Below are positions 7,601-41,022 of a DNA stretch of 45,307 nt, piece after piece. Numbering within the stretch: the first letter of the stretch is position 1; each line of letters begins with the position of its first letter. A program made the position numbers and the translations under genes. The stretch lies in NCBI GenBank assembly GCA_945893125.1, contig CAMDDY010000001.1, forward strand, positions 1-45,307, given 5' to 3'. Source of the stretch: Bordetella parapertussis. GTDB taxonomy: Bacteria; Pseudomonadota; Gammaproteobacteria; Burkholderiales; SG8-41. The notes below the pieces were generated by a model, which searched no databases, had not been told where the DNA came from, and was given only the letters and a program-made list of their open reading frames with translations.

Positions 7601-7601
7601 A

Positions 7602-11796: not shown

Positions 11797-11827
11797 GGCG
11801 ATTGTAGGATTACTGGCCGTATGTATT

Positions 11828-18573: not shown

Positions 18574-18597
18574 TCCGTAAACACGAGAGATATCGCC

Positions 18598-21573: not shown

Positions 21574-21586
21574 CTCGTATTGACCT

Positions 21587-25984: not shown

Positions 25985-26641
25985 TTATTCTAGTATCGTC
26001 CAGTACCAGTCGCCCGTGTAACCGGCTTCTTTAAATAGTTTGTTCCAACCATCCGGATAGTCGTGAAACTTGGCAGTCAACACCCACGACAAAAACAGCT
26101 CCCGCTGGGCTGGCGTTCGATACGAATCGACCTGAATGAAGCCACGGCCCGGCGCGAGACGCTCTACCTCTCGCACCGCACGTATTGCATCGTGACGCTC
26201 GAAGTTATGTATGGTATTGAGGGAGATCACTGCACTGAAGCTGTTGTCCGGAAATGGAAGTTTATCGCCACTGCCCAGATGCAGTCGCCCGACCACCTCC
26301 GGCTCGCAATGCATAAGCGCATATTCCGAGATATCCAGGCCGAATACTTCGAGTCCGGGACAGACTTTCAACAAATCCTTCACCAGGAACCCCTTGGCGC
26401 ATCCGACATCGAGCACGCGATCGCCGGGCTTGAGGCTGAAGTGCTTGATGATATCTTCGGCGATAGGTATCCAGCGTCCGTCGTAGCGATAACCGCCATA
26501 GCCGACCTCGCGCGGACCGTCGAAATACTGCTCTCCATATTGACGCGAAATTGCGATGTTCTCGGGTGTCTGCGCTTCCTTGCGCTTTTCAATATTGCGC
26601 TTGGACTTCGGCAACCGCGCCAGCAAATTGATTTCTGCCAT
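25985..26641 (-). CDS. class I SAM-dependent methyltransferase
   Basis: Trimmed to MAEINLL... at 26641, which shares 1 nt with the upstream stop. Motif I is RVLDVGCAKG. Confidence 0.8.
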   Translation of the reverse strand: MAEINLLARLPKSKRNIEKRKEAQTPENIAISRQYGEQYFDGPREVGYGGYRYDGRWIPIAEDIIKHFSLKPGDRVLDVGCAKGFLVKDLLKVCPGLEVFGLDISEYALMHCEPEVVGRLHLGSGDKLPFPDNSFSAVISLNTIHNFERHDAIRAVREVERLAPGRGFIQVDSYRTPAQRELFLSWVLTAKFHDYPDGWNKLFKEAGYTGDWYWTILE

Positions 26642-27528
26642 CAGATCTTCTCCTCGGATAACTTCATTGCCAGCGCCAGTCCCTCTTCCAGCGGCGTAAA
26701 CCGGAACGCGGGAAAAGCCTGGCGACATGCAGTGATATCGAAAAAGCGATGCACTAGGTGCGGGCGCGGTACGGTGCGCGGGTTCTCCTGGACCTTGACC
26801 TTGTTCCCGAACTGCGCCGCAATGATGTGAGCGATTCGGTTAAAAGATGTCGCCACCCCGGTTGCGGCATTGAGCGCGCCGCGGCTGCGGTGAAACAGCA
26901 TCAAACGCGCAATCTCTGCCAAATCATCCACGCTGATGTGATCGCGCTGCTCTTCACCCTCGCCGAACAGCGAAATCGCCTCGCCGCGCTGCGTCTGCCG
27001 CCGAAAACGATTCGGTCCGTAACCGTTATGCGGATCACCTGCACCGTAGATCAGTGTCGGGCGCAGCATGGCAGTCGGTGCCGTTACGGTGGTTTTGAGC
27101 ATCAACTCGCGTGCCGCGTGCATCATGCCGTGCAGCGTCGAGGGCGCACAGCAGGATTCTTCGGTGACGGGATTCGCATCATCGGCGTAGACAGCATCCG
27201 AGCTGATATAGAGCAAATGATGGATTGGCACCGCGGCGAGCGCCTCGCATACGGCCTCTGCCATCCGCAGGTTCTGCATCAGCATCGCAACGTTCTTGGC
27301 CGGTGCGATGGCCGACACCATGACAACGCTGTCATCCGGCCTTAACATGGATTTCAATTTCACTGCGGCGTCCACCGCCATCAGGTCGATTTGCCTGCGC
27401 GTCAACGCAAGTGTTTTGACATCGCATGCCAAGAGACACCGGTTGATAGCACCGCCCACAAAGCCGCCAGCTCCGATTACGATTACGCGTGATGGCTTGA
27501 CTGGCGCTGCGTTGAAATGTTCGAGCAT
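26641..27528 (-). CDS. atypical extended SDR (NAD-dependent epimerase/dehydratase fold, HxxxH instead of YxxxK)
   Basis: 295 aa. Rossmann motif VIGAGGFVGG and ISSDAVY. The expected P-x-x-x-Y-G-x-x-K segment reads PSTLHGMMHAARE. Confidence 0.75.
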   Translation of the reverse strand: MLEHFNAAPVKPSRVIVIGAGGFVGGAINRCLLACDVKTLALTRRQIDLMAVDAAVKLKSMLRPDDSVVMVSAIAPAKNVAMLMQNLRMAEAVCEALAAVPIHHLLYISSDAVYADDANPVTEESCCAPSTLHGMMHAARELMLKTTVTAPTAMLRPTLIYGAGDPHNGYGPNRFRRQTQRGEAISLFGEGEEQRDHISVDDLAEIARLMLFHRSRGALNAATGVATSFNRIAHIIAAQFGNKVKVQENPRTVPRPHLVHRFFDITACRQAFPAFRFTPLEEGLALAMKLSEEKI

Positions 27529-27543: not shown

Positions 27544-28827
27544 TTATGCGCCGTGCAGGCACGGCTTGCCTAACGTAAAGTATTCGAGCCCCGCTTCTTT
27601 GACACTTGCCTCGTCGAGCACGCGGTAAGGATCAATAATCGCTTTTCCCGCCAATCGGCTCCTAAGATCGGTCGGCTTCAGCTCGCGGAATGCCGGCCAC
27701 GGCGTCATGATCGCAATCACGTCGGCACCGTTCGCCGCATCCAGCGCCGACTCGAAACCGGCACAATTCGGGTGATCGACCACGTTCGCCAGCACCAACG
27801 GATCGAACACTCGCAACCGCCATGGCTTAAGGTGCGCGATCAACGCCAGCGACGGCGAATTCTTGGTCGAGTGGGTGTTTTCCTTGTACGCAAGGCCCAG
27901 CACGGCAATGACGGCATCCGGCTTGCGTGCGATGACTGCAGCATGCAACGTGCGCAATACCCAATGACGGCGGTGCCGGCTATTGCGCACGAAGGCCTGC
28001 ACCAGGCCCGCTTCTGTGCCGGTTTCCTGGCTCAACTGCAATACGGTCGCGAGGTCGCGCTCGAGGTTGCCGCCCGCCAAGCCGAGGCCGGGCGCGAGGT
28101 ATGCAAATTGACCGATACGGCGATCGAGCTTCAAGGCCGGCGCGATCTCGCTCCAGTCGGCGCCTATCCGTTCGCTGAGTTCCGCCAGCGTGTTTGCCAC
28201 GGTGACCGAAGCCACCAAGCAGCAGTTGATTGAAATTTTTGCAAGTTCGGCGCTTTCATACCGCATCGGCAGGAGGGGGCACGCGAACGCGGACAGAAAA
28301 GCGTTGTAATGCCTGGGCAGGGGCTGCATCGGATCGGCGCAACCCACGATAATGCGTTCTGGATGCATCGCGCGATCAAACGCACGGCCGAAAATCAGCG
28401 TCTCGACCTGATAATAAAGCCGTGCGCAATCGAACGTGAGGCTGCGCGTGAACCCGGGTGGGGCCTGGCACAGAATGACAAGCGTTGCCGCAGGCGCCAG
28501 TGCTGCCGCAACCGCGCCGATCAATGCCCTGATGCCGGCGAGATTGCTCTGCCCGCAGTCATCGGTCGGCACGTCGGCTGCGATGTATACCACGTCGCAG
28601 CGTGCAAGGTCGCGCTGATCGGCGGAATATCGGATGCGCCCAGCGTGCTGCCAAAGCATTTCCGGCAGATCCGGCTCGACCACGGGCAGGTCGCCCGCCG
28701 TGAGACGCGCAATGAGCGCTGAATCCGTATCGAAGCACACCGTATCAAAACCGCGTGCTGCACAAGCCGCTGCGGAATTGATGCCAAGATGCGTCATTCC
28801 TGCAAAGCCGACTACACTGCCGCTCAT
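27544..28827 (-). CDS. UDP-glucose/GDP-mannose dehydrogenase family protein lacking the catalytic cysteine
   Basis: Trimmed to MSGSVVGFAGMTHLG at 28827, giving an ATGA overlap with the upstream gene. Three-domain UGDH-like layout (VLGLAYKENT). The active-site motif reads GLGLAGGNLERD where the family has GxGxGGxC(L/F)PKD. Confidence 0.8.
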   Translation of the reverse strand: MSGSVVGFAGMTHLGINSAAACAARGFDTVCFDTDSALIARLTAGDLPVVEPDLPEMLWQHAGRIRYSADQRDLARCDVVYIAADVPTDDCGQSNLAGIRALIGAVAAALAPAATLVILCQAPPGFTRSLTFDCARLYYQVETLIFGRAFDRAMHPERIIVGCADPMQPLPRHYNAFLSAFACPLLPMRYESAELAKISINCCLVASVTVANTLAELSERIGADWSEIAPALKLDRRIGQFAYLAPGLGLAGGNLERDLATVLQLSQETGTEAGLVQAFVRNSRHRRHWVLRTLHAAVIARKPDAVIAVLGLAYKENTHSTKNSPSLALIAHLKPWRLRVFDPLVLANVVDHPNCAGFESALDAANGADVIAIMTPWPAFRELKPTDLRSRLAGKAIIDPYRVLDEASVKEAGLEYFTLGKPCLHGA

Positions 28828-29756
28828 GACTGCACCTGTTGCAATGCTGCTGCACCGAGCTCGCGTAACTGCCGGTTGAGCCACAAGTCATCGGCAAGAT
28901 CGGTGGCAACGCCGCGCTTGCACAGCGCCTTGAAGTACGCATATTCGATTTCCCACGTGGGATCGTCCTGCGCAAGCGTCACCGATTCTTCGGGCGGTCG
29001 CCCGCTCGGCAACAGGCGCGTGCGCAGCGTGAAAGTGCTGGGCCCCCACTTGCACAACGAACGGATATGCGCGCTGCCACGCTCGGCGAACACATCGCAA
29101 GTGAAGTGATTGCGCCATGAGAGCAGCGTCATTTCCAGTTCTAGTTTCGGCGCCGACGTGTTCGACCCAATCACCACATGGTCCGGTGCGCGGTTTTCGA
29201 AGCAATTGACCGAAACAATTTCTAATTTCCCGCCCACATCGCCGAACCAGAACTTCGCGGTATCCAGCAGGTGCGAGCCGAGATCAGGCAGCACGCCCGC
29301 ACCCTGATCTCGCCACTGCGAGTCACGCACCAAGCGCGCCGTACCGTTGCCGTAAAACATCCGGCAACGATATATCTTCCCAAGCCGGCCCGACGCCACG
29401 AGTTCGCGCATGCGCACGAAATGCGGCTCGAAGCGGTGGTTGTATGCGGTGTAGCAGACGGCCTTGTTGGCGCGGGCGATCCGCTGCAGGCGCTCGATAT
29501 CTTCATCCTGCGCGGCCCACAGCGGCTTTTCCACCAGCACGTGCTTGCCGTGACCCAGCAGATAGGACAGAACTTCTATTTTCGGTTCGTCGGGTATGCA
29601 GGCAAGCGCTGCATCATAGCTATCCAGCGGCACATCCTCGATTTTTCGGTATTCAGCCTGGGTGTTGAGCGGATCCACCGCTGCGACAAAATCCGCGCCC
29701 GCGAATTTCCGGCGCTTGTGTCCCTGTACTCCGAGGCCCACGACGATGACGCGCAT
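28824..29756 (-). CDS. Gfo/Idh/MocA family oxidoreductase
   Basis: Trimmed to MRVIVVGLGVQG at 29756. VLVEKP motif present. Confidence 0.8.
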   Translation of the reverse strand: MRVIVVGLGVQGHKRRKFAGADFVAAVDPLNTQAEYRKIEDVPLDSYDAALACIPDEPKIEVLSYLLGHGKHVLVEKPLWAAQDEDIERLQRIARANKAVCYTAYNHRFEPHFVRMRELVASGRLGKIYRCRMFYGNGTARLVRDSQWRDQGAGVLPDLGSHLLDTAKFWFGDVGGKLEIVSVNCFENRAPDHVVIGSNTSAPKLELEMTLLSWRNHFTCDVFAERGSAHIRSLCKWGPSTFTLRTRLLPSGRPPEESVTLAQDDPTWEIEYAYFKALCKRGVATDLADDLWLNRQLRELGAAALQQVQS

Positions 29757-29772
29757 AATGCGACCGTTGATG

Positions 29773-31329
29773 CTAACTGTAATTTGCCTGGCGCTCGACC
29801 GTGTCGATTTTTCGACGGACATCCTCCGGCGTTACCGGAATATTACCGTCGTATTCGCACGCACAGGCCGCAGCAATCGAGCCGAGTATGGTTGCGACCG
29901 TGTCCGACCCGGTCGCTAGCTTGGACAACGTCGCGTAAGCGAGCAAAGCATCGCCCGCACCAACCGCATCGACAACGTGCTCGACAAAACTGTCCAACAC
30001 GCCGAAGGAATCCAGGGAACTGTGATCGCTGCTGCGGCACGTCAGCACGCCACGTTCGCCAAGCTTGAGAATGAGGGTCTTGCATTTAGCGGCATCATAG
30101 AGCGCCGAAGCGAGCGGTCGTATACCCGAGTCCTGATCGCCGAGCGCAAATCTCGCTTCACGCTCATTGGGTGTGATCAGATCGAAACCCTTGAAGTCGG
30201 TGATGTTGCCCCAGCGGCTCGCTACCTGGCTGTCAGCCACTTTGTAGATACCAGCAGGGATGGCTGATATCAGGTGCGGGATCGTACGGCGGTTGTAAAT
30301 GCCATGCCGAAAATCGCTGAACACCACCGCGTCAGTCGCGGTTTCCCGCACGCCTTGGCATAACGTCGCCAACACATCATCGGAAATCGAGCGGTTGTCG
30401 AGTGTGTCGATTTTCAGCAATCGATACCCTCCCGCAACGATAGCGTTCTTGTGGGTCGTCGGCCGCGTCGAATCGATTATCGGACGACACACCACGCCCG
30501 ACTTCGCAAGGCCACTCAGCACGAAATCCTTAAATTTGTCGTCGCCAAGAACGGTCGAAAAAACAACCTCCGCGCCGGCGGCGCGCAGATGCTCGGCAAC
30601 GATTGCCGCGCCACCGATGTAGTCGTCACGCCCCTCGTAGAGCACACTCATGGTCGGCGTCTTGGTCTGCCCACCTATCATCGCGGTCCGCGTATAGCTG
30701 TCGACTATGGTGTCGCCGACCACATGCACACGCTTGCCTTTGAGCTTGTCGAGCGCTTCGCGGAGCGAGGTGAACGTGAGTTTTTCCGAATCCATGAAGG
30801 TGAGGAGTTTCTCGAGCTTGATCGCCGGCGGTGCAAGTTCGATCAGCTTGCTCGATGAGTAAACGATATCCCCCGGCGTAAATAGCAGTTCCCCGCCATA
30901 AGAATGCAGAATCTGCGACTCTTCCTGCGTTTTGGCAGCTACGCCGTTGGACGTGTATTCGTAGCCTTTCGCGAAATAGTCAGGCTGGATGCGGGATATG
31001 TTTTTGAGCGGAGTCGCATCCGTGTCGATGAGAACATAATCGACCAGTTCGAACGCCGCAAGGTTGAGTGCGCGTAGATCCTGCGGCACATGAGGGCGAT
31101 GCTGGCCCTTGGTGATATGAGCGTCGGCGGTGATGCTGGTAACAAGGATATCGGCTTTGCTCTTGGCGTAGATCAGGTGGCGCAGGTGGCCAGGATGCAC
31201 CACATCGAACACGCCGTGGCACATAATCACTTTTTTCTCGCGCGGTCGCGTCCCGACCGCCTTGATCAATTCATCGACCGTCTTGATCTTGTGCCGGTAC
31301 TTTTCGGTCAGCGAAGCGAGTGTGCTCAT
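29773..31329 (-). CDS. bifunctional nucleotidyltransferase (N-terminal, cytidylyltransferase-like) / PfkB sugar kinase (C-terminal); domain-permuted HldE-like
   Basis: 518 aa. The N-terminal domain has HGVFDVVHPGHLRHL (HxGH). The C-terminal domain has VVGDTIVDSY...VDAVGAGDALLA (PfkB signatures). Confidence 0.85.
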   Translation of the reverse strand: MSTLASLTEKYRHKIKTVDELIKAVGTRPREKKVIMCHGVFDVVHPGHLRHLIYAKSKADILVTSITADAHITKGQHRPHVPQDLRALNLAAFELVDYVLIDTDATPLKNISRIQPDYFAKGYEYTSNGVAAKTQEESQILHSYGGELLFTPGDIVYSSSKLIELAPPAIKLEKLLTFMDSEKLTFTSLREALDKLKGKRVHVVGDTIVDSYTRTAMIGGQTKTPTMSVLYEGRDDYIGGAAIVAEHLRAAGAEVVFSTVLGDDKFKDFVLSGLAKSGVVCRPIIDSTRPTTHKNAIVAGGYRLLKIDTLDNRSISDDVLATLCQGVRETATDAVVFSDFRHGIYNRRTIPHLISAIPAGIYKVADSQVASRWGNITDFKGFDLITPNEREARFALGDQDSGIRPLASALYDAAKCKTLILKLGERGVLTCRSSDHSSLDSFGVLDSFVEHVVDAVGAGDALLAYATLSKLATGSDTVATILGSIAAACACEYDGNIPVTPEDVRRKIDTVERQANYS

Positions 31330-32327
31330 GGTCGATTTCCGAGGTATTCAAACCAAGTCTTAGTTGCGACCGAGATCGACTTGGGATCCCATAGCGGGGC
31401 ATCGCGCCAAACATCAATCTCCTGCATCATCATGGCGACGCCCTTTTCGAACGGCACTTGCGGCCGCCATCCCAAGTCCTTCTGGATCTTTTTGACGTCG
31501 GCCCAAGTGCAGTCCGGCTCGCCCGGGCGCTTGGGAATATATTCCTTCTCGCCACCAAGAAGGTCCACCAGCCGGTTCACCGACTGCGGGTTTCCCGCCC
31601 CCAAATTCCAGATCTCGCCCGTCTTGGCGGATTCCGCCGCAAGACGGAATGCCTCCGCAACATCAGTCACATACAGGAAATCCCGCGTCTGCGAGCCGTC
31701 GCCGACTACCGTGAACGACCGGCCGGCGAGCTTCTGCCGGAAAAACACGCCGAATACCGCGCCGTATGCGCCGGTCGTTCGCACGCGCGTCCCGTAAGCG
31801 TTGAATATCCGGACCGAATTCACCGGCAACCGGTAGACCTTGTGCCAGTGGAAGCAGGCAACCTCGCCCATCCATTTCGACAAGGCATACGGATAGTGCG
31901 GCTCGATCGGATGATCTTCGCGCGTGGGTGTCGCAGCCAGTCCGTAACAGGAGGAGGATGCCGCATAGACCAGTTTTCGCACTTTAGCGTCGCGCGCGCA
32001 TTCGAGCACCTTGACCGTACCCTGCACGTTCGCCGACATGTATTCGGCGGGATGCTCGATCGACGGCACGATATCGCCTATCCCGGCAAAATGAAAAACA
32101 TGACGCACGTCCCGAAACAGCGCGTCACCCGGCTCGAGATCGCGCACATCGCGCTTTTCAAGAGAGAAATCCGGATTGGCCGCTTGGTGCGCGACATTGC
32201 TCTCGCGGCCGCTGACGAAATTATCAACAGCCCTGACCCTGTATCCCTGGCCGAGCAGGTTGTCGACCATGTGACTGCCGATAAACCCCGCACCGCCGGT
32301 GACTACGGCGATGGGCTTGACTGTCAT
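31326..32327 (-). CDS. extended SDR, NDP-sugar epimerase/decarboxylase-like
   Basis: 333 aa. [11 protein letters not shown] and YPYALSKWMGE. ATGA overlaps on both sides. Confidence 0.85.
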   Translation of the reverse strand: MTVKPIAVVTGGAGFIGSHMVDNLLGQGYRVRAVDNFVSGRESNVAHQAANPDFSLEKRDVRDLEPGDALFRDVRHVFHFAGIGDIVPSIEHPAEYMSANVQGTVKVLECARDAKVRKLVYAASSSCYGLAATPTREDHPIEPHYPYALSKWMGEVACFHWHKVYRLPVNSVRIFNAYGTRVRTTGAYGAVFGVFFRQKLAGRSFTVVGDGSQTRDFLYVTDVAEAFRLAAESAKTGEIWNLGAGNPQSVNRLVDLLGGEKEYIPKRPGEPDCTWADVKKIQKDLGWRPQVPFEKGVAMMMQEIDVWRDAPLWDPKSISVATKTWFEYLGNRP

Positions 32328-33319
32328 TGAACGCCCAGCCTCTTCATGCGCTTGACGTTGTAATAAATATCGTCCGTCATGCTGTCCGGGAGCTTGCCGG
32401 CTTTGAATGCCTTACACAGATCGCGCACGGCATCCTCGATAGTATGCTTGGGCTTGAATCCGATCACACGGGCGATTTTGTCCGAATTGATGTGATAGGA
32501 GCGAATGTCGTCGCTGGGTGTGGTCACGAGTTCGATATCACCCTTCTCGGGATATTCTTCTTTTACTACTTTGCGAACCGCCTTCGCGATATCCATGATG
32601 CTCAGGTTCTGGTAACCGGCATTGAACGTCTGCCCTGCGATTTTCTCCGCCGGCAACTCGATCAGCAGTTGATACAGATCACACATGTCCTGGATATGCA
32701 GGTTGGGGCGTAACTGGCCACCGCCAAAAACCGTGATCTTATTGTTATTGACCGCGTGATTGGTGAGAATATTGACCGACAAATCCATGCGTGTGCGCGG
32801 GCTATAGCCGCACACTGTCGCTGGACGTATCGTAACGCACGTGAAGTCGGGTCCCTGATGCTTCCATAGCAGCGGCTCGCACATGCCCTTGTATTTGTTA
32901 TAGAGCGACACCGGCACCAGCGGATGATCCTCCGTCACGTCGGGTTTGTCGGAAACGCCATACACCGAGCTTGACGAGCAATAGACAAAGCGCTTGACTC
33001 CCGCTTTCTTGGCCGCAATAACCATCGGCTCGAATGCGTCCATATTGACACTGGTAGACAGCTTTTCGTCGAGCTCGAAACTCGCGTCGTTCGAAACGCA
33101 TGCAAGCGACAGCATGACATCAATGCCCTTGAACATGTCCGCATACTTGGCAATCTCGCGGATGTCCCCCGTGACGAGCTTCAGATTCTGGTGCTTCGGC
33201 AAGTGATTACCGTAAAGATAGGTGTCAAAAACGGTGACGTTGTAACCGGCGTTCAGCAGTTGCGGCGTGAGAACGCAACCCACATAGCCGGCACCGCCCG
33301 TGATGAGGACGTTTTTCAT
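32324..33319 (-). CDS. extended SDR, NDP-sugar epimerase/dehydratase family
   Basis: 331 aa. ITGGAGYVGC, SSSSVYG and LYNKYKGMCE (YxxxK). Confidence 0.85.
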   Translation of the reverse strand: MKNVLITGGAGYVGCVLTPQLLNAGYNVTVFDTYLYGNHLPKHQNLKLVTGDIREIAKYADMFKGIDVMLSLACVSNDASFELDEKLSTSVNMDAFEPMVIAAKKAGVKRFVYCSSSSVYGVSDKPDVTEDHPLVPVSLYNKYKGMCEPLLWKHQGPDFTCVTIRPATVCGYSPRTRMDLSVNILTNHAVNNNKITVFGGGQLRPNLHIQDMCDLYQLLIELPAEKIAGQTFNAGYQNLSIMDIAKAVRKVVKEEYPEKGDIELVTTPSDDIRSYHINSDKIARVIGFKPKHTIEDAVRDLCKAFKAGKLPDSMTDDIYYNVKRMKRLGVQ

Positions 33320-33349
33320 ATTAGCCTGTAGTTAAGTGAAAAGAATCAT

Positions 33350-34105
33350 TCAACCGGCGGCGCGGCGCGCTGCCGCAGGTGCTTCGCCGGCAATCGTGAA
33401 ACCGGCGGCGACCGCGTCGCGGCGAAACATCTCGACGGTTTCGAGCGAATAGTCGTCGAGGTTCTTGCCGACCAGATTAAGCTTGGCCAGCACGTCGTTG
33501 GTTACCGTGATGATGTGGCAGCCGATCGCATCCGCCTGAAAGATATTGAGCAGTTCACGCGGACTGGCCCAGATCAATTCAGCCTTGGGTTTCGACTTCA
33601 TAATCCTGACCGCTTGCGCCATCAACGGCACCGGGTCTACGCCGGTGTCGGCGACGCGGCCCGCGAAAACCGAAATGATCGCCGGAGTTCCCGGCACGAG
33701 GCAATCAGTCACCTGCTGAACCTGATCGAGCGTCATGATCGCGGTGACATTCACGGCAACACCGGCCTTGGACAACTCGCGAATCAACCGACCTGAAAAT
33801 TCACGCCGGGTATTAGTCACCGGAATTTTGACATTAACATTCTTACCCCAAGACGCAATCACCTTCGCCTGGCGCTCCATTTCGTCGAACTCGTCAGCAA
33901 ACACTTCCAGAGACACAGGCCGATCAGGCACTGCAGCCAACAGCTTGCGTGCGAACGCTTCGTATTCTGCGATCCCCACCTTACGCATCAACGTCGGATT
34001 CGTAGTGAATCCCTTGATCAACGGATTCGCGTACATTTTCATGATCCCGTCGAAATCGGCGCCGTCGGCGAAAATTTTGACGCGCAACTTATCGATGGAT
34101 GTCAT
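33350..34105 (-). CDS. transaldolase / fructose-6-phosphate aldolase family protein
   Basis: 251 aa. GFTTNPTL and the Schiff-base lysine context NVNVKIPVT. Confidence 0.85.
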   Translation of the reverse strand: MTSIDKLRVKIFADGADFDGIMKMYANPLIKGFTTNPTLMRKVGIAEYEAFARKLLAAVPDRPVSLEVFADEFDEMERQAKVIASWGKNVNVKIPVTNTRREFSGRLIRELSKAGVAVNVTAIMTLDQVQQVTDCLVPGTPAIISVFAGRVADTGVDPVPLMAQAVRIMKSKPKAELIWASPRELLNIFQADAIGCHIITVTNDVLAKLNLVGKNLDDYSLETVEMFRRDAVAAGFTIAGEAPAAARRAAG

Positions 34106-34125
34106 TGCGAATTTTTCCCCTGGAT

Positions 34126-34677
34126 TTAAACTAACGATAGAATCGAGCGTGTGGCGAAACCAAGCGTACGCGCATAATTATTAGGTATAGCCAACCGCAA
34201 CTCTCTATAGCCGCGATCGATGAAGAAAGTATAACATCCAACCGCTTGCCCAGCAACGATATCCCCCCACCGGTCACCCACCATGAAGCTCCGGGCAAGG
34301 TCGATATCCCACTCCTTGGCGGCCTCGACCAATAGCCCCGGTTTCGGCTTGCGGCACTCACATCCCTCGTTCTGCCGGTGAGGACACACCTTGATATCGT
34401 CTACCGGCAAACGATTCATGAGCTTGTCGTGCATAGCTTCAACGACGTTAACGTCGACGAGGCCGTTGCCAATATCCGGTTGATTGGTCACGACAATCAC
34501 CAGCAACCCTGCGTGTTTAAGGGACTGCACTGCGGGAATCACCCCGGGAAGCAGACGAAAATCCTCGACGCGGCGCGGCGCATAAGGTTTGCCATCGCGC
34601 ACTTCGCAGCGGTTGATTACGCCGTCGCGGTCGAGAAAAACCGCGCGGTGCTTACTGACAATTCGGGACTCCGGCAC
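34126..34677 (-). CDS. gmhB: HAD-IIIA sugar bisphosphate phosphatase (D,D-heptose 1,7-bisphosphate phosphatase-like)
   Basis: 183 aa. FLDRDGVIN nucleophile motif and GmhB-type Zn/Cys motif CPHRQNEGCECRKPKPG. Confidence 0.8.
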   Translation of the reverse strand: MPESRIVSKHRAVFLDRDGVINRCEVRDGKPYAPRRVEDFRLLPGVIPAVQSLKHAGLLVIVVTNQPDIGNGLVDVNVVEAMHDKLMNRLPVDDIKVCPHRQNEGCECRKPKPGLLVEAAKEWDIDLARSFMVGDRWGDIVAGQAVGCYTFFIDRGYRELRLAIPNNYARTLGFATRSILSLV

Positions 34678-34716
34678 GTTTGCGCAGGCGCGATGTAATA
34701 GATGACAAGCAACCGC

Positions 34717-35478
34717 CTAAGGCGGCGTAGTCTGGGTATTCATCCGGTGATACTCTTTTGCCACATCGGCTGTGCTGCCGGTGGCAATGATCCGGCCATG
34801 ATCCATCAGCACCGCCTTGTTGCACATCACATTGATCAAGGCATCGGAATGCGATGCGAGAACCAGTATGCTCGATCGCTCGATCAGCGCATCAATGCGT
34901 TTCTTTACGCGTTCCTGAAACCGTGCATCCCCGGCACCCAAGCCTTCGTCCAGCAACAGAATTTCCGGATTGATTGCGGTTGCAATCGCGAACCCAAGCC
35001 GCGTTAGCATTCCTGTGGAATAGGTACGCACGGGCAGCGAAAGATACTCGCCGAGTTCGGTAAACTCCTCGATTTCCGGAGTCTTGAGCCGGATCTCCTC
35101 GCGGGTCATGCCGAGATAGAGACCGCAAGTCAGGATGTTCTCGTAACCGGTATCGTCCATGCTAAGTCCAGGGGCCGTATTAAGCAATGGCGAAAGTCGG
35201 CCCTCGGTAATGACGCGGCCTGACAGAGGTTCGTACACGCCCGCCAGCACACGCAACAAAGTGGATTTGCCGGCGCCATTGTGGCCGATGAACCCGATGC
35301 GATCTCCGTGCGCGATCGTCAGAGAAATATCGTCCAGCGAGCGCACTGTCACCCGATCACTTTTCTTGCCTTCCCGCCTTATGAGACCACCCGCCCGTGA
35401 CAATAAAGCGGTGCGAAAGCTATGGTGCCCGTAGATCGGGAAATCGACCGTGACGTGCTCAAGAATAATGGATGCCAA
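34717..35478 (-). CDS. wzt: polysaccharide ABC exporter ATP-binding protein (NBD only, 253 aa)
   Basis: Walker A GHNGAGKST, signature YSTGM, Walker B ILLLDE. I place the start at TTG 35478, 7 nt downstream of GAGGAGGA. The 389-aa track ORF extends out of frame into wzm. Confidence 0.8.
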   Translation of the reverse strand: MASIILEHVTVDFPIYGHHSFRTALLSRAGGLIRREGKKSDRVTVRSLDDISLTIAHGDRIGFIGHNGAGKSTLLRVLAGVYEPLSGRVITEGRLSPLLNTAPGLSMDDTGYENILTCGLYLGMTREEIRLKTPEIEEFTELGEYLSLPVRTYSTGMLTRLGFAIATAINPEILLLDEGLGAGDARFQERVKKRIDALIERSSILVLASHSDALINVMCNKAVLMDHGRIIATGSTADVAKEYHRMNTQTTPP

Positions 35479-35498
35479 CTCGAAATCCTCCTCGTCCG

Positions 35499-36296
35499 TC
35501 AGAGCCAGTACGCCACTCGGCGACGGAAACGGCTGTAAATAAATAACGTCAGGCACCAGCCGATAATCGTGCCCAAAAACACCATCTTCCAGTTCAGGGC
35601 ACTCGCAGGCGTACCGAGTAAAGGTTTGCGCACGATTTCGATGTAATGGACCAGCGGGTTGAGGTCTACAAGAATGGTGGCTGCGCGTCCGCTGATCTGG
35701 CTGGGTGACCAGAAAACCGGTGTGACGAACATCAGTATCTGGAGAATGCTGATGACCAACTGCTGCATGTCGCGGTAGCGTGCGCCTATCATGCCGAGCA
35801 ACGTGACAACCCATACGCCGTTTAGGCAAATGAACAAAAGTCCGGGGATGACCTGCAAACTCGCCCAGGTAACAGGTATGCCACAAAACACCATAACCCC
35901 GATATACACGACGCTATTGTGTAAAAAAAGAATGAGATTTCTCCACACCACGGCGCAACTGAGCACCGTATACGGAAAGCGCATCGCCTTGATGAGCGCC
36001 TCGAATGAGATAAACGTCACGACGCCTTCAGCCATAATGGCGGAGATCAGGGTCCAGGTCAGCATTCCCGCAGCGACGAAAGGCAGATAATCGCTGACAT
36101 TCATTTTCCACAATTTCGCCCACACGATGCTGAATGAGACCATGAAGATGCCGAGGCTCAGCGTCGCCCAGAACGGGCCGAAAGAGGTGCGGCGATAGCG
36201 TGCCCGAACATCCGACCAGCCTTGACGCCCCCACATTCGCCACTGCGTCACACCTTCGCGGATATCAGTGAAAGCTAGATCATACTCGGGCTTCAT
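35499..36296 (-). CDS. wzm: polysaccharide ABC exporter permease (ABC-2 type)
   Basis: About 6 TM segments with N-terminal ...VRARYRRTSFGPFWATLS, typical of Wzm/KpsM-type permeases. ATG 36296 chosen; TTG 36323 is possible. Confidence 0.8.
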   Translation of the reverse strand: MKPEYDLAFTDIREGVTQWRMWGRQGWSDVRARYRRTSFGPFWATLSLGIFMVSFSIVWAKLWKMNVSDYLPFVAAGMLTWTLISAIMAEGVVTFISFEALIKAMRFPYTVLSCAVVWRNLILFLHNSVVYIGVMVFCGIPVTWASLQVIPGLLFICLNGVWVVTLLGMIGARYRDMQQLVISILQILMFVTPVFWSPSQISGRAATILVDLNPLVHYIEIVRKPLLGTPASALNWKMVFLGTIIGWCLTLFIYSRFRRRVAYWL

Positions 36297-36432
36297 CTTG
36301 ATCGTATCCAGAAAAGCCTGCAAAAATAATTGTGGTGGCTAGGGCCGCTTCCCGGCATTTCGGTGTTCGCTGTATTAAATTTTCCGTTCGTCCGCGCCCA
36401 CCACCGCAATATGCCCCCAGACAGCATACCTG

Positions 36433-37020
36433 CTACCACTTGGTAGCCTGCTGCTGCAGTATGGGATGGGAAACGAGGCAGTGCCAGACGACCGCCTGAA
36501 AAGCTTCCGTATGCGGAGTTACGTGCGCGGGATCAACGGTCGGAACAACTACGACGTGATCGCCAACCTTCTTGGTATAGCCACCATCGCGGCCGACGAC
36601 GCCGAAAATCTTCATACTACGTACTTTCGCGACTTCCAGCGCTCGCACAAGATTTGGACTGACGTGCTTTTCCAGATTACCGCCCCCCACGGAGAATATA
36701 AACACGCCATCCTTGTTGCACGCCTTGCTGGTTACCAGCCAGGCGGCAAAAACGGTTTCCCAACCTTCGTCATTGGTACGCGCAGTAAGTTCGGATACAT
36801 TATCCGTCGGGGCATAGGATTCAATACCACACAACTTGCGGAAGTCATTGACCGCGTGACTACAATTCCCCGCACTGCCACCAACGCCAAGAAAAAACAG
36901 CCTACCTCCTTCCGACCGAAGCTGAGCAAGGGCAGCGGCCATAGCCTCGATCGCAGAAACATCAAGCGTACGCGCAACTTCGGCAGCTTGATCCAGATAA
37001 GTTTTAACGTGGGAAGGCAT
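36433..37020 (-). CDS. gmhA: SIS-domain ketose-phosphate isomerase (sedoheptulose-7-phosphate isomerase-like, divergent)
   Basis: 195 aa. FFLGVGGSAGNCSHAVNDF, TNDEGWETVF and FSVGGGN align with GmhA motifs GNGGSHCDAMHF / GNDFGFNDIF / STSGNS. Confidence 0.75.
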   Translation of the reverse strand: MPSHVKTYLDQAAEVARTLDVSAIEAMAAALAQLRSEGGRLFFLGVGGSAGNCSHAVNDFRKLCGIESYAPTDNVSELTARTNDEGWETVFAAWLVTSKACNKDGVFIFSVGGGNLEKHVSPNLVRALEVAKVRSMKIFGVVGRDGGYTKKVGDHVVVVPTVDPAHVTPHTEAFQAVVWHCLVSHPILQQQATKW

Positions 37021-37176: not shown

Positions 37177-38376
37177 TCAGCGGCCTCTCCGGTTATGCAA
37201 AGGTCGCAGTTCTTGAATCATTCTGGCCGCACGCTGCGGGACGCGGTTCTTCAATTCTGATACAAGGTTGCGCCAAGGCACACGTCGCAAATGTACCTTG
37301 TCTGCCAGATCAAGCTGAAGTATCGGGTAGACCAAGGGTGCTGTTTTCTTTTCAACGGCAGACCAACTGCTGCCAAGTTCTCCTGAATGCAGTTTTATCG
37401 CTCTCGTAAAAAAGAGCCGGTGCAACGGATTGACGAGTGGCGAATAAGCCATCCCCTGTATATTTGCTATGTTTGGAGCGTTAGGCGTCAATGCAGCGAA
37501 TCTTTCGTCTCTACCTGTGAGAGAAAAAATCAACAGGTTATCCGAGTCCGTCTCAACGTGTATCTGTTCCCAGTCGGTTACGCTATACCCAAGAAAGTCC
37601 CCGTCGATGGTCGAAACCTCGAGGCTGGGGAAATCCTTTGCTCCGCGCATCGATACCAACATCGGGTGCAGATGGAACGCCCGTATCAACAGCCCCGTAT
37701 CTCCTGGCACGTTCCACGTGCACATATGGGGATGCACGGTAAATTGCGGGTGCTCCCAGTTATATCTCTGCACTTCCAAATGCAAGTGGCGCATACCAAA
37801 CTCGACCAGTTCGCGCCCGGAAAATGTGAGCGGGCCATCTCCGTCTAACTTGCCAGTTTGCTTAAGTTCTTCGTAAACGCTCTCCTGTATCAGCCTGAGC
37901 CCGGGTGTCATAACCGCCTGCTTGCCCGCTCTGGCCATCTGCTCCAAATGCCTGAAAGACCCATCCGATATCAGACAATCAGGACAAAGGTACACACAAT
38001 ATCCATCACCTTGGGCAGCAATCTCCGCTGCTGCGCGGTGCCCGCGGGCAGCCTTCAGATGGTAGGGAATGTTCTGTCCCATCCACGGCGAATCAACAAA
38101 TACCGGCTCGATGACCATGCACAGCTTTTTAAAAATCGGAGCGGCCTCGATACGCACGCGATCTGCTGGCGTGGTAAGGATCAGGAAGCGCGATTCCTTC
38201 AGGTTTGATAGCGCCGGTAGATTACCCGGGGACATGAACGTTGGTAGTGCGATGTCAAGGAACATATCGACATAGCTTTCGCCCCAGACCACCATTACAT
38301 AAAAGAACGGCAATGCCGTGTCGACTGAAGGCTGACCCATGTGCGCGCTATCGTTCATCTGTCCATTTCGTTGCAT
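37177..38376 (-). CDS. uncharacterised protein, paralog A (candidate novel glycosyltransferase)
   Basis: 399 aa. No family recognised. Clear homology to ORF 42185..43675 (segments listed in the findings). Start could be M7 or M13. Confidence 0.7.
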   Translation of the reverse strand: MQRNGQMNDSAHMGQPSVDTALPFFYVMVVWGESYVDMFLDIALPTFMSPGNLPALSNLKESRFLILTTPADRVRIEAAPIFKKLCMVIEPVFVDSPWMGQNIPYHLKAARGHRAAAEIAAQGDGYCVYLCPDCLISDGSFRHLEQMARAGKQAVMTPGLRLIQESVYEELKQTGKLDGDGPLTFSGRELVEFGMRHLHLEVQRYNWEHPQFTVHPHMCTWNVPGDTGLLIRAFHLHPMLVSMRGAKDFPSLEVSTIDGDFLGYSVTDWEQIHVETDSDNLLIFSLTGRDERFAALTPNAPNIANIQGMAYSPLVNPLHRLFFTRAIKLHSGELGSSWSAVEKKTAPLVYPILQLDLADKVHLRRVPWRNLVSELKNRVPQRAARMIQELRPLHNRRGR

Positions 38377-40923: not shown

Positions 40924-41022
40924 TTGTTACCATATGTCGCATTAGCAAGAATAGCCGTTCGGCCTCATTCATTCGAGTAAATAGCTGAGTTTTATATATT
41001 ATAAGTGGAATAGGCAGCGATT

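What the first reader, a model, noticed from the sequence alone, without database searches (positions are those of the whole stretch)
27544..37020. The enzyme set mirrors the lincosamide octose pathway as closely as a heptose pathway, suggesting an aminated C7/C8 sugar
Seen in the window:
- transaldolase (33350-34105)
- SIS isomerase (36433-37020)
- sugar kinase fused to a nucleotidyltransferase (29773-31329)
- HAD bisphosphate phosphatase (34126-34677)
- SDR epimerases
- a UGDH-family protein (27544-28827) coupled to a Gfo/Idh/MocA oxidoreductase (28824-29756)
- a DegT aminotransferase (43770-45044)

As I recall the published lincomycin work:
- LmbR (transaldolase) builds octulose-8-phosphate.
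- LmbN (SIS isomerase), LmbP (kinase), LmbK (HAD phosphatase) and LmbO (nucleotidyltransferase) give GDP-octose.
- LmbM (SDR), LmbL (NDP-sugar-dehydrogenase-like), LmbZ/CcbZ (Gfo/Idh/MocA) and LmbS/CcbS (PLP aminotransferase) then perform epimerisation, 6,8-dehydration and 6-transamination.

Every one of those families has a counterpart here. The kinase and nucleotidyltransferase are of the HldE type (PfkB plus cytidylyltransferase-like) rather than the GHMP plus RmlA type. The donor would therefore be ADP/CDP-linked and the pathway independently assembled.

A lincosamine-like 6-amino-6,8-dideoxy-octose, or the analogous amino-deoxy-heptose, in a Gram-negative surface glycan would be new to me.
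Basis: partly seen in the sequence, partly recalled or inferred. Interest (0 to 1): 0.85.

Follow-up and report, generated by a model that had tools for sequence, protein, structure and literature searches.

The report
Widespread cassette for an unknown sugar
A conserved block of about a dozen sugar-building genes, present here in a Gram-negative bacterium and in hundreds of other species, most likely makes an unidentified seven- or eight-carbon methylated (here probably also aminated) cell-surface sugar; its enzyme logic parallels the lincomycin octose pathway but uses different parts.

Summary
They form one co-directional array (22649-45044, minus strand).

The core order is SIS isomerase, GmhB-like phosphatase, transaldolase, two SDRs, nucleotidyltransferase-kinase fusion, Gfo oxidoreductase, UGDH-like protein, atypical SDR, SAM methyltransferase. 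It is colinear in Nitrospirota, Burkholderiales, many Alphaproteobacteria, Acidobacteriota and Gemmatimonadota. At least 586 species genomes carry the marker protein.

The UGDH-like protein has the catalytic cysteine replaced by asparagine (GGNLERD) throughout the subfamily. It overlaps the Gfo gene by 4 bases. It therefore cannot be an ordinary uronic-acid-forming dehydrogenase, which rules out a WbpA/WbpB-type reading and is compatible with an LmbL/LmbZ-like role.

The DegT aminotransferase is an accessory part. Its orthologs sit directly after a split transketolase in 13 loci.

The isomerase, kinase-nucleotidyltransferase and phosphatase all fall below the curated thresholds for ADP-heptose enzymes. 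No Lmb sequence could be obtained, so orthology to LmbL/LmbZ was not tested. C7 versus C8 stays open, with octose slightly favoured. No description was found in the literature searched.

The parts
36433..37020 (-). SIS-domain sugar-phosphate isomerase (divergent GmhA-like); core
   Evidence: PF13580. TIGR00441 gmhA 48 bits against a cut-off of 209. Best PDB matches are phosphoheptose isomerases at E 3.5e-12. Ortholog found in 40/50 loci.
34126..34677 (-). HAD-IIIA sugar bisphosphate phosphatase (GmhB-like); core
   Evidence: NF006506 (beta-heptose 1,7-bisphosphate 7-phosphatase) 133 bits against a cut-off of 178; TIGR01656 140.8 bits. DRDG and CxH...CxCRKP motifs are read directly from the sequence. 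Found in 44/50 loci.
33350..34105 (-). Small transaldolase, TIGR02134 type; core
   Evidence: PF00923. TIGR02134 350.9 bits (cut-off 282); TIGR00875 only 81.9 bits. The VKIP Schiff-base lysine motif is conserved. Found in 47/50 loci.
32324..33319 (-). Extended SDR 'A' (epimerase type, SSSxVYG / YxxxK); core
   Evidence: PF01370 122 bits. Found in 47/50 loci at 64-86% identity.
31326..32327 (-). Extended SDR 'B' (GalE/LegB-like); core
   Evidence: PF01370 193 bits; TIGR01179 160 bits, below cut-off. Found in 49/50 loci.
29773..31329 (-). Bifunctional nucleotidyltransferase (N-terminal, HxGH) plus PfkB sugar kinase (C-terminal); HldE-like with swapped domain order; core
   Evidence: PF01467 at residues 37-129 and PF00294 at 203-499. 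rfaE_dom_II 90 bits (cut-off 181.5), rfaE_dom_I 127 bits (cut-off 345), HldE 148 bits (cut-off 521). Found in 49/50 loci.
28824..29756 (-). Gfo/Idh/MocA NAD-dependent oxidoreductase, translationally coupled to the next gene; core
   Evidence: PF01408, PF22725 and PF02894. GLGVQG Rossmann motif. Best PDB matches are inositol/glucuronide dehydrogenases at E 1e-10; no WbpB/WlbA entry is listed at E<=1e-3. Found in 50/50 loci. The sequence is 44% identical to the N-terminal half of fusion protein P0183.
27544..28827 (-). UGDH-family protein without the catalytic cysteine (Cys to Asn; GGNLERD), with GxGxxG replaced by G[LM][ST]HLG; core and marker of the cassette
   Evidence: Three UGDH Pfam domains. 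TIGR03026 189.9 bits against a cut-off of 189.8. Alignments to 4a7p and 3gg2 place Asn at the Cys position. Asn is invariant in 120 close homologs. In 126 aligned sequences the position is N in 110 and H in 9. The UGDH catalytic Lys, Asn and Asp are kept. ATGA overlap with the Gfo gene.
26641..27528 (-). Atypical extended SDR 'C' (RmlD/GDP-fucose-synthase-like); YxxxK replaced by a conserved HGxMHxxR; core
   Evidence: PF01370 87 bits and PF04321. Conservation profile. Found in 48/52 loci.
25985..26641 (-). Class I SAM-dependent methyltransferase; core and the most conserved gene (up to 91% identity)
   Evidence: PF08241 and PF13649. Found in 51/52 loci.
24948..25937 (-). NDP-sugar 4,6-dehydratase-like SDR 'D' (TSELYG motif); accessory
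   Evidence: TIGR01181 161.8 bits, below cut-off. Best PDB matches are dTDP-glucose 4,6-dehydratases at E 7e-40. Found in 23/52 loci.
23186..24948 (-). Split transketolase: N-terminal ThDP subunit 24103-24948 and C-terminal subunit 23186-24106; accessory
   Evidence: PF00456; PF02779 plus PF02780. NF004559 207.9 and 155.4 bits. Found in 31/52 loci.
22649..23119 (-). NUDIX hydrolase; accessory
   Evidence: PF00293. Found in 23/52 loci.
43770..45044 (-). DegT/DnrJ/EryC1 PLP sugar aminotransferase; accessory, displaced to the far 5' end of the array in this window
   Evidence: PF01041 166.9 bits. A lysine is present in the FSTMYRK motif. Orthologs at 55-64% identity lie immediately after the transketolase C subunit in 13 loci. 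Found in 10/52 loci that have enough flank.
34717..36296 (-). ABC-2 permease (35499-36296) and ABC ATPase (34717-35556): Wzm/Wzt-type polysaccharide exporter inserted between the isomerase and the phosphatase
   Evidence: PF01061 and PF00005. Orthologs flank the cassette in 10 or more other loci.
37177..38376 (-). Unannotated protein with a predicted GT-A glycosyltransferase fold (paralog at 42185-43675)
   Evidence: No Pfam or NCBIfam hit. The AlphaFold2 model has mean pLDDT 90.5. Top Foldseek matches are TarP, AvpGT, RmlT and SpsA at probability 1.0 over about 155 residues. PD and DSD columns are invariant.
42185..43675 (-). Paralog of the GT-A-like protein, with a hydrophobic C-terminal tail
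   Evidence: 26% identity to 37177-38376 in alignment A2. No Pfam hit.
38536..42180 (-). Second SAM methyltransferase (38536-39543), radical SAM/SPASM protein (39865-40911) and FkbM-family methyltransferase (41023-42180): further tailoring genes
   Evidence: Pfam. Radical SAM orthologs at 60-65% identity lie near the cassette in 7 loci; FkbM orthologs at 47-52% identity in 4 (L005, L006, L009, L081).

Best explanation
The region is a conserved, horizontally mobile biosynthetic cassette. It builds, from central sugar phosphates, a nucleotide-activated higher-carbon sugar that is tailored and methylated and then built into an ABC-transporter-exported surface polysaccharide (O-antigen or capsule type).

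Inferred order of steps:
1. The dedicated transaldolase makes a ketose phosphate. This is most likely octulose 8-phosphate from ribose 5-phosphate plus a C3 unit; alternatively sedoheptulose 7-phosphate.
2. The SIS enzyme isomerises it to the aldose phosphate.
3. The PfkB domain phosphorylates C1.
4. The GmhB-like phosphatase removes the terminal phosphate.
5. The fused nucleotidyltransferase makes the NDP-sugar, probably ADP- and beta-linked.
6. SDRs A and B epimerise it.
7. The Gfo oxidoreductase and the cysteine-less UGDH-like protein act as a pair on the exocyclic side chain. The reaction is an oxidation/dehydration that stops short of a carboxylate, by analogy with the LmbL/CcbZ 6,8-dehydration.
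8. The atypical SDR C and the methyltransferase finish the core product.
9. In this window the accessory set (4,6-dehydratase-like SDR D, split transketolase, DegT aminotransferase, radical SAM, extra methyltransferases) modifies the product further. This includes one transamination.

Shown: gene families, intact catalytic motifs, loss of the catalytic Cys, cassette conservation and composition. Inferred: substrates, carbon number, reaction order, nucleotide.
For: - Families and motifs.
- The cassette is colinear in Sulfuricaulis and Burkholderiales MAGs and in 80 species genomes from at least five phyla; at least 586 genomes hold the marker.
- Core gene frequencies are 40-51 of 50-52 loci.
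- The transaldolase is as conserved (57-83% identity) and as constant (47/50) as the activating enzymes. No published heptose cluster known to me includes one.
- The isomerase, kinase/nucleotidyltransferase and phosphatase all score below the NCBIfam equivalog cut-offs for GmhA, HldE and GmhB. They are therefore not the housekeeping ADP-heptose enzymes.
- Cys is replaced by Asn or His across the UGDH-like subfamily while the catalytic Lys, Asn and Asp are kept.
- ATGA coupling with the Gfo gene, and one Gfo-UGDH-like fusion protein.
- A separate canonical TviB/TviC pair with the Cys intact sits in the same window.
- DegT orthologs lie inside the cassette in 13 loci.
- ABC-2 exporter genes and GT-A-fold proteins are in the array.
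- WaaA, a GT9 heptosyltransferase and a TolC-like gene in the window show a Gram-negative host.
- The published lincosamide roles of LmbR/N/K/O/P/M/L/Z/S are confirmed from PMC4351081 and PMC12945683.
Against: - No Lmb or Ccb sequence could be compared. The LmbL/LmbZ analogy rests on family membership, pairing and the loss of the Cys only.
- The transaldolase subfamily (TIGR02134) differs from the type reported for CcbR.
- A transaldolase can equally make sedoheptulose 7-phosphate, so C7 is not excluded.
- The fusion protein P0183 comes from a single 3.7-kb contig. It could be an assembly or frameshift artefact of the 4-base overlap.
- The role of the split transketolase is unexplained. Transketolase itself can make octulose 8-phosphate (PMC4892735), or it could act on a nucleotide sugar.
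- No glycan from any carrier organism has been analysed.
Confidence: 0.55

Rival explanations
1. Modified heptose pathway (C7). The transaldolase only boosts sedoheptulose 7-phosphate supply. The divergent GmhA/HldE/GmhB-like enzymes make an ADP-heptose. The cysteine-less dehydrogenase oxidises C7-OH to the aldehyde (or the Gfo enzyme oxidises C6). The rest epimerise, reduce, methylate and, in this window, aminate it, giving a methylated deoxy- or amino-heptose.
For: - The closest characterised relatives of the isomerase, kinase/nucleotidyltransferase and phosphatase are the heptose enzymes.
- A UGDH-type active site without the Cys would be expected to stop at the aldehyde.
- The terminal oxidation plus transamination logic is known from Kdo8N. 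Its KdnA-type transaminase is among the PDB hits of the DegT (5k8b).
Against: - All three activating enzymes fall well below the heptose equivalog cut-offs.
- A dedicated transaldolase kept in 47/50 loci is hard to justify for a metabolite every cell already has.
- DegT is absent from about 80% of cassettes, so aldehyde amination cannot be the core role of the dehydrogenase-like protein.
Confidence: 0.3
2. Chain-extension pathway. The cysteine-less dehydrogenase makes a terminal aldehyde on the NDP-sugar. The split transketolase adds a C2 ketol unit to it, and the DegT aminates the new ketone. The product would be a C9-C10 amino sugar, or a carbocyclic/branched higher sugar of the caryose, caryophyllose or bradyrhizose kind.
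For: - DegT orthologs always follow the transketolase directly.
- The transketolase is present in 31/52 cassettes.
- An aldehyde-arrested dehydrogenase would provide a transketolase acceptor.
- Higher-carbon and C-4-branched sugars of unknown biosynthesis exist in related Alphaproteobacteria (PMC9912281; PMC4743980).
Against: - The transketolase is missing from 40% of cassettes that keep the dehydrogenase-like/Gfo pair.
- No transketolase is known to act on nucleotide sugars.
- A search with the Bradyrhizobium sp. LTSP849 ortholog found no BTAi1, ORS278, ORS285 or Rhodopseudomonas palustris protein among the best 120 hits. The published ORS285 gdh primers match none of the loci.
Confidence: 0.1
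3. Ordinary WbpA/WbpB/WbpE-type route: UDP-GlcNAc 6-dehydrogenase, 3-oxidase and aminotransferase giving a 2,3-diamino uronic acid. On this reading the heptose-like genes are an unrelated neighbouring pathway.
For: The same three protein families (UGDH, Gfo/Idh/MocA, DegT) define that pathway. WbpE is a weak PDB hit of the DegT (E 2e-16).
Against: - The catalytic Cys needed for acid formation is replaced throughout the subfamily.
- No WbpB/WlbA structure is among the Gfo protein's PDB hits.
- The pair is locked between the kinase/nucleotidyltransferase and SDR C in every locus.
- DegT is usually absent.
- No acetyltransferase or 2-epimerase is present.
- A canonical TviB/TviC pair is encoded separately.
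Confidence: 0.02
4. Kanosamine/AHBA-like amino-sugar-phosphate pathway (RifL/K/M/N plus transketolase, or NtdABC logic) making a small molecule rather than a glycan.
For: Gfo oxidoreductase, DegT-family aminotransferase, HAD phosphatase, sugar kinase, isomerase and split transketolase all have counterparts in that pathway (my own knowledge of the rif and ntd clusters). AHBA synthase is a PDB hit of the DegT.
Against: - DegT and the transketolase are accessory.
- The kinase is fused to a nucleotidyltransferase, and the phosphatase has GmhB motifs.
- There are no aminoDAHP/AHBA genes.
- The cassette sits among an ABC-2 exporter, glycosyltransferases and LPS genes.
Confidence: 0.02

Closest known systems
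Lincosamide GDP-octose/lincosamide pathway (LmbR, N, P, K, O, M, L, Z, S; Ccb equivalents) of Streptomyces
   Same: The chemistry is staffed by the same or analogous families: transaldolase, SIS isomerase, anomeric kinase, GmhB-like phosphatase, nucleotidyltransferase, SDR epimerase, a UGDH-like protein paired with a Gfo/Idh/MocA protein, and a DegT-type aminotransferase.
   Different: - The kinase is PfkB rather than GHMP. The nucleotidyltransferase is cytidylyltransferase-like and fused to the kinase, rather than RmlA-like.
- The transaldolase belongs to subfamily TIGR02134, not the 222-aa actinobacterial type.
- The aminotransferase is only accessory.
- This cassette has an obligatory methyltransferase and an atypical SDR, plus an optional 4,6-dehydratase-like SDR, split transketolase and NUDIX, all without Lmb counterparts.
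- The product goes into a polysaccharide, not an antibiotic.
- Sequence relatedness to the Lmb proteins was not tested.
ADP-L-glycero-beta-D-manno-heptose pathway (GmhA, HldE, GmhB, HldD)
   Same: The nearest characterised relatives of the isomerase, kinase/nucleotidyltransferase and phosphatase belong to it. The same four-step activation logic applies. The nucleotide is probably ADP and the anomer beta.
   Different: - All scores are far below the equivalog cut-offs.
- The domain order of the bifunctional enzyme is reversed.
- The transaldolase, Gfo, UGDH-like protein and methyltransferase have no place in that pathway.
GDP-6-deoxy-heptose tailoring of Campylobacter, Burkholderia and Yersinia capsules and O-antigens (DmhA/WcbK 4,6-dehydratases, C3/C5 epimerases, C4 reductases)
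   Same: A dedicated second set of higher-sugar genes inside a polysaccharide locus. SDR D carries the TSELYG 4,6-dehydratase motif.
   Different: - Those pathways are GDP-alpha-linked, using a GHMP kinase.
- They use cupin epimerases.
- They lack the transaldolase, Gfo, UGDH-like protein and transketolase.
WbpA/WbpB/WbpE (UDP-ManNAc3NAcA) pathway
   Same: The UGDH, Gfo/Idh/MocA and DegT families occur together.
   Different: The catalytic Cys is absent here, the Gfo protein is not close to WbpB/WlbA, there is no acetyltransferase or 2-epimerase, and the genomic context is different.
ThDP-dependent two-carbon transfer in branched or higher sugars (yersiniose YerE, PDH-E1-like AviB1/B2), and transketolase-made octulose 8-phosphate in plants
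   Same: A ThDP enzyme is embedded in a deoxysugar cluster next to a 4,6-dehydratase-like SDR. Transketolase is a known source of octulose 8-phosphate (PMC4892735).
   Different: Here it is a true split transketolase, not an acetolactate-synthase or E1 type. Its substrate is unknown, and it is always followed by the aminotransferase when the latter is present.

Membership tests
Lincosamide octose pathway (Lmb/Ccb) | Transaldolase orthologous to LmbR/CcbR that makes octulose 8-phosphate | tested here: inconclusive
   Same Pfam family, PF00923. However, the window enzyme is TIGR02134 type (350.9 bits) and scores only 81.9 bits on the FSA/TalC model. CcbR is reported as 222 aa and closest to a Cellulomonas transaldolase. 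No LmbR sequence was available, and activity cannot be tested here.
Lincosamide octose pathway (Lmb/Ccb) | GHMP-type C1 kinase (LmbP) and separate RmlA-type guanylyltransferase (LmbO) | tested here: not met
   The kinase is PfkB and is fused to a cytidylyltransferase-like domain.
Lincosamide octose pathway (Lmb/Ccb) | UGDH-like LmbL acting with Gfo/Idh/MocA LmbZ/CcbZ (6,8-dehydration) | tested here: inconclusive
   A pair of the same two families is present, translationally coupled, co-occurring in 50/50 loci, and the dehydrogenase-like partner lacks the Cys. Sequence relation to LmbL/LmbZ was not tested (no sequences; PMC7547251 not held). Whether LmbL also lacks the Cys is unknown to me.
Lincosamide octose pathway (Lmb/Ccb) | PLP aminotransferase (LmbS/CcbS) as an obligatory step | tested here: not met
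   A DegT is present in the window, but its orthologs occur in only 10/52 cassettes.
ADP-heptose pathway (GmhA/HldE/GmhB) | Proteins reach the curated equivalog scores | tested here: not met
   GmhA 48 against 209; HldE 148 against 521; rfaE domain I 127 against 345; rfaE domain II 90 against 181.5; GmhB 133 against 178.
ADP-heptose pathway (GmhA/HldE/GmhB) | HldE architecture: kinase N-terminal, adenylyltransferase C-terminal | tested here: not met
   The nucleotidyltransferase is at residues 28-164 and the kinase at 194-507.
UDP-glucose/GDP-mannose 6-dehydrogenase family (four-electron oxidation to the acid) | Three-domain fold | tested here: met
   PF03721, PF00984 and PF03720 are all matched.
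UDP-glucose/GDP-mannose 6-dehydrogenase family (four-electron oxidation to the acid) | Catalytic cysteine nucleophile in GGxCxxKD, and GxGxxG NAD motif | tested here: not met
   GGNLERD and GMTHLG are found instead. The position is Asn in 110 and His in 9 of 126 aligned sequences. Two canonical controls in the same alignment have Cys.
WbpA/WbpB/WbpE pathway | Functional 6-dehydrogenase, WbpB-like 3-oxidase, obligatory aminotransferase, acetyltransferase and 2-epimerase | tested here: not met
   No acetyltransferase or 2-epimerase appears in the array.
ABC-transporter-dependent surface polysaccharide locus | Wzm/Wzt-type ABC-2 permease and ATPase, glycosyltransferases, and LPS context | tested here: met
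   PF01061 and PF00005. GT-A-fold prediction for 37177-38376. WaaA, GT9, rmlBADC and TviB/TviC-like genes lie nearby. WecA-type and GT2 genes lie next to the cassette in L003.

The most novel reading that the evidence does not exclude
The cassette is a route to sugars longer than eight carbons. The cysteine-less dehydrogenase-like enzyme stops at a terminal aldehyde on the nucleotide sugar. The split transketolase extends that aldehyde by a two-carbon ketol, and the DegT aminates the new keto group. This would be the first transketolase acting on a nucleotide sugar. It would also give a biosynthetic entry to the C9-C12 and carbocyclic sugars (caryose, caryophyllose, bradyrhizose types), whose origin is unknown.
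Probability: 0.1. Interest if true: 0.9.

Novelty: new variant of a known kind. Interest (0 to 1): 0.66.

Why it matters
Apart from Kdo-type acids, no eight-carbon (or longer) aldose is known to be made for a bacterial cell surface by a defined pathway. The only characterised NDP-octose route is the lincomycin one, in an antibiotic producer.

This is an unstudied cassette with the same chemical logic, built from different enzyme families. It is fixed in gene order across at least five phyla and hundreds of environmental species, including nitrifiers (Nitrospira), Bradyrhizobium, Azospirillum and Magnetospirillum.

If it makes an octose or a longer sugar, it adds a new class of monomer to LPS and capsule chemistry. 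It would also explain a large, mis-annotated 'UDP-glucose 6-dehydrogenase' subfamily that cannot make uronic acids. The few cultured carriers give a direct experimental handle.

Tried and rejected
1. **Direct comparison with Lmb/Ccb proteins: not possible.**
   - The PNAS 2020 and JACS 2012 papers are not held.
   - The PLoS One 2015 supplement gives only accession numbers and identities.
   - Looking up ten divergent, GC-rich representatives by cluster gave no actinomycete producer.
   - No Lmb-named structure is in the PDB hits.
2. **Plasmid collection:** no match to the UGDH-like protein.
3. **Bradyrhizose link.** The assumed 11-gene 'gdh' operon of photosynthetic Bradyrhizobium (PMC4743980) looked like a candidate. 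A search with the Bradyrhizobium sp. LTSP849 ortholog returned B. manausense but no BTAi1, ORS278, ORS285 or Rhodopseudomonas palustris protein in the best 120. The published gdh primers and their translations match none of the 86 loci. The link is not supported, though it is not strictly excluded.
4. **Literature searches.** I searched for a transaldolase-containing heptose or octose polysaccharide cluster, for Coxiella (the other TIGR02134 host), and for NDP-octoses outside lincosamides. Nothing relevant turned up.
5. **WbpA/B/E and kanosamine/AHBA readings:** considered and rejected (see rivals).
6. **The Gfo-UGDH-like fusion P0183** is kept only as weak evidence. It is a single sequence on a 3.7-kb contig.

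Full report
**Observation**

The window is a metagenome contig (ENA ERZ27280223, k141_1191795). It comes from a Gram-negative bacterium: it carries waaA, a GT9 heptosyltransferase, a TolC-like gene, thiC and bacA. The most similar cassettes are in Burkholderiales MAGs (L005, L008, L017, L019, L025; several proteins at 80-91% identity).

From 22649 to 45044 every gene is on the minus strand, with short gaps or 4-base overlaps.

- The bifunctional enzyme has the nucleotidyltransferase first and the PfkB kinase second, the reverse of HldE.
- The start of the UGDH-like gene overlaps the stop of the Gfo gene (ATGA).
- The array also holds two more SDRs, a SAM methyltransferase, a split transketolase and a NUDIX gene downstream.
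- It holds an ABC-2 exporter in the middle. Two unannotated paralogs, two further methyltransferases and a radical SAM/SPASM protein lie between the isomerase and the DegT.

**The cassette is conserved**

The UGDH-like protein has more than 120 clusters of homologs at 66-82% identity.

Contigs from a Sulfuricaulis MAG and a Burkholderiales MAG carry the genes in one order: SIS, HAD, transaldolase, SDR, SDR, nucleotidyltransferase-kinase, Gfo, UGDH-like, SDR, methyltransferase, SDR, (split transketolase), NUDIX.

The best 80 come from Nitrospirota, Burkholderiales and other Betaproteobacteria, many Alphaproteobacteria, Gemmatimonadota, Acidobacteriota and Thermodesulfobacteriota. Cultured isolates among them are Bradyrhizobium sp. 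LTSP849, Azospirillum rugosum, A. griseum, Magnetospirillum sp. UT-4 and Marinibaculum pumilum.

I ran tblastn of all window proteins against these loci. Frequencies among loci with enough flank:

| Class | Gene | Loci |
|---|---|---|
| Core | Gfo | 50/50 |
| Core | Kinase/nucleotidyltransferase | 49/50 |
| Core | SDR B | 49/50 |
| Core | Transaldolase | 47/50 |
| Core | SDR A | 47/50 |
| Core | Phosphatase | 44/50 |
| Core | Isomerase | 40/50 |
| Core | Methyltransferase | 51/52 |
| Core | SDR C | 48/52 |
| Accessory | Split transketolase | 31/52 |
| Accessory | 4,6-dehydratase-like SDR D | 23/52 |
| Accessory | NUDIX | 23/52 |
| Accessory | DegT | 10/52 |

DegT orthologs (55-64% identity) were found in 13 loci in all. 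In each they lie immediately after the transketolase C subunit.

**The UGDH-like/Gfo pair**

Alignments to solved UDP-glucose dehydrogenases place Asn where the catalytic Cys should be (GGSCFPKD becomes GGNLERD). The GxGxxG motif becomes GMTHLG.

The Asn is invariant in 120 close homologs. An exhaustive search returned 150 representatives of 50%-identity clusters, down to 34% identity. In an alignment of 126 sequences (124 of those representatives plus the window's own two UGDH-family proteins), the position is N in 110 and H in 9. The only two Cys in that column are the canonical controls: the window's own TviB-like gene and P0221.

The UGDH catalytic Lys, Asn and Asp are kept (K197, N201, D258 are invariant).

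This is a large, distinct subfamily, annotated in databases as UDP-glucose 6-dehydrogenase. It cannot use the thiohemiacetal/thioester mechanism that makes uronic acids. It always sits behind the same Gfo oxidoreductase. One protein (P0183) is a Gfo-UGDH-like fusion whose N-terminal half is 44% identical to the window Gfo. That protein is a single sequence on a short contig, so I weigh it lightly.

The Gfo protein has a normal Rossmann motif. Its nearest solved relatives are inositol and glucuronide dehydrogenases, with no WbpB/WlbA entry listed.

The window also encodes a canonical TviB/TviC-like pair with the Cys intact (20287-22627) and rmlBADC. Ordinary nucleotide-sugar dehydrogenase chemistry is thus covered elsewhere.

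These facts exclude the WbpA/WbpB/WbpE reading. They fit a non-classical side-chain oxidation/dehydration of the kind published for LmbL plus CcbZ; the roles are confirmed from PMC12945683 and PMC4351081.

My mechanistic suggestion is inference only. The Gfo protein would do the redox steps. The Cys-less protein, with its degenerate dinucleotide motif, would do the acid/base (dehydration) step or a two-electron oxidation.

**The activating enzymes**

The catalytic motifs are intact:
- VKIP lysine in the transaldolase.
- DRDG and CxH...CxCRKP in the phosphatase.
- HxGH in the nucleotidyltransferase.
- GAGD in the kinase.

Their nearest characterised relatives are GmhA, HldE and GmhB, but all scores are far below the NCBIfam equivalog cut-offs. 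The nucleotidyltransferase domain is nearer to the heptose adenylyltransferase (90 bits) than to glycerol-3-phosphate cytidylyltransferase (26 bits). The phosphatase is nearer to the beta-specific model (133 bits) than to the alpha-specific one (86 bits). An ADP-beta-linked product is therefore the best guess.

The transaldolase is TIGR02134 type. CcbR is described as a 222-aa protein closest to a Cellulomonas transaldolase. Like the kinase and nucleotidyltransferase, it was probably recruited independently.

**C7 or C8?**

Nothing computed here decides it.

- For C8: a dedicated transaldolase is as constant and as conserved as the other core enzymes. No heptose cluster I know of has one. A side-chain dehydration of the Lmb type needs a carbon beyond C7. 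The activating enzymes have diverged strongly from the heptose enzymes.
- For C7: those enzymes' nearest relatives are heptose enzymes, and a transaldolase naturally makes sedoheptulose 7-phosphate.

I put octose at about one half, heptose at about one third, and longer sugars at about one tenth.

**The accessory module**

SDR D has the TSELYG motif, and its best structural relatives are dTDP-glucose 4,6-dehydratases. The split transketolase could act in three ways:
- On sugar phosphates. Transketolase is a known source of octulose 8-phosphate (PMC4892735).
- By adding a two-carbon branch to a 4-keto sugar.
- By extending a terminal aldehyde.

Its invariable adjacency to the DegT suggests the aminotransferase acts on the keto group this module creates. 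That is speculation.

**Glycan context**

An ABC-2 permease/ATPase pair lies inside the array, and orthologs flank the cassette elsewhere.

The two unannotated paralogs (37177-38376, 42185-43675) belong to a small family of 65 proteins with no Pfam domain. They have invariant PD and DSD motifs. A confident AlphaFold2 model (pLDDT 90.5) has an N-terminal half matching GT-A glycosyltransferases: TarP, AvpGT, RmlT and SpsA, at Foldseek probability 1.0. They are the likely transferases for the unusual sugar.

In L003 the cassette is followed by GT2, WecA-type and WbpM-type genes. A surface polysaccharide is therefore well supported.

**Known or new?**

Full-text searches found no description of this cassette or of a bacterial surface octose pathway.

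Two leads to known but biosynthetically unexplained sugars were followed:
- Bradyrhizose of photosynthetic Bradyrhizobium, for which an uncharacterised 11-gene 'gdh' operon is assumed (PMC4743980).
- The C-4-branched, O-methylated higher sugar of Rhodopseudomonas palustris CGA009 (PMC9912281).

A search with the Bradyrhizobium sp. LTSP849 ortholog found B. manausense, but none of those strains among the best 120 hits. The published primers match none of the loci. The link is not supported.

**Limits**

The decisive sequence comparison with LmbL, LmbZ and LmbR could not be run, because no Lmb sequence was obtainable with the tools. Substrates, carbon number, nucleotide and reaction order are inferences.

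**Verdict**

The region is one instance of a widespread, apparently uncharacterised cassette for a nucleotide-activated, methylated higher-carbon sugar. Its logic parallels the lincosamide octose pathway without sharing several of its enzyme families. The amino group is an optional elaboration, present in this window. I rate it a new variant of a known kind, with interest about 0.66.

Noticed in passing
window 37177-38376 and 42185-43675: Two paralogous proteins with no Pfam or NCBIfam family. A confident AlphaFold2 model of the first (pLDDT 90.5) has a GT-A glycosyltransferase-like N-terminal half, and the family has invariant PD and DSD motifs. The family is small (65 database clusters, all 'hypothetical'). 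It is likely a new glycosyltransferase family for the unusual sugar.
   Followed up: partly
window 26641-27528: The conserved SDR C of the cassette lacks the canonical YxxxK catalytic pair. A conserved HGxMHxxR occupies that place in 60 orthologs. It may be a non-redox epimerase or use a different catalytic set.
   Followed up: partly
window 39865-40911, 38536-39543 and 41023-42180: A radical SAM/SPASM protein, a 335-aa SAM methyltransferase and an FkbM-family methyltransferase sit between the isomerase and the DegT. Radical SAM orthologs (60-65% identity) recur next to the cassette in seven other loci. Their role in sugar tailoring is unknown.
   Followed up: partly
window 20287-22627 (+): A canonical TviB-like UDP-GlcNAc 6-dehydrogenase (Cys intact, GGHC) and a TviC-like 4-epimerase are transcribed towards the cassette. 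They imply a GalNAcA-type residue in the same or a neighbouring glycan.
   Followed up: partly
window 11978-15370 (+) and 9569-11796 (-): A complete rmlB-rmlA-rmlC-rmlD operon lies next to waaA (Kdo transferase) and a GT9 heptosyltransferase. LPS core, rhamnose and the cassette are thus clustered within 35 kb.
   Followed up: no
window 15610-20186 (+): A bifunctional class II aldolase/short-chain dehydrogenase (NF006196, 1071 bits) is followed by a PNP_UDP_1-family phosphorylase, a phosphoribosyltransferase and an IF-2B-family protein. These could be methionine-salvage or rhamnose-related genes wedged between the two sugar regions.
   Followed up: no
P0214 (722 aa) and P0183 (719 aa), from the representative search: Two fusion proteins carry the cysteine-less UGDH-like domain at the C-terminus. 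One has a classical short-chain dehydrogenase at the N-terminus, the other the cassette's Gfo oxidoreductase. Only P0183 was looked up; it is a singleton on a 3.7-kb contig. P0214 was not looked up, so artefacts are not excluded for either.
   Followed up: partly
L058 (Azospirillum rugosum) 1-14712: Here the cassette is interrupted. The Gfo gene ends at 2070 and the UGDH-like gene starts at 10001, leaving about 8 kb between the two otherwise overlapping genes. The transaldolase and phosphatase were not found within the locus.
   Followed up: no
L016 (contig CAZCGD010000530.1): A MAG labelled 'uncultured Streptomycetaceae' carries a cassette 66-84% identical to the window's proteobacterial one. 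Several MAGs labelled 'Bordetella parapertussis' carry it too. These labels look like binning or naming errors rather than true hosts.
   Followed up: no
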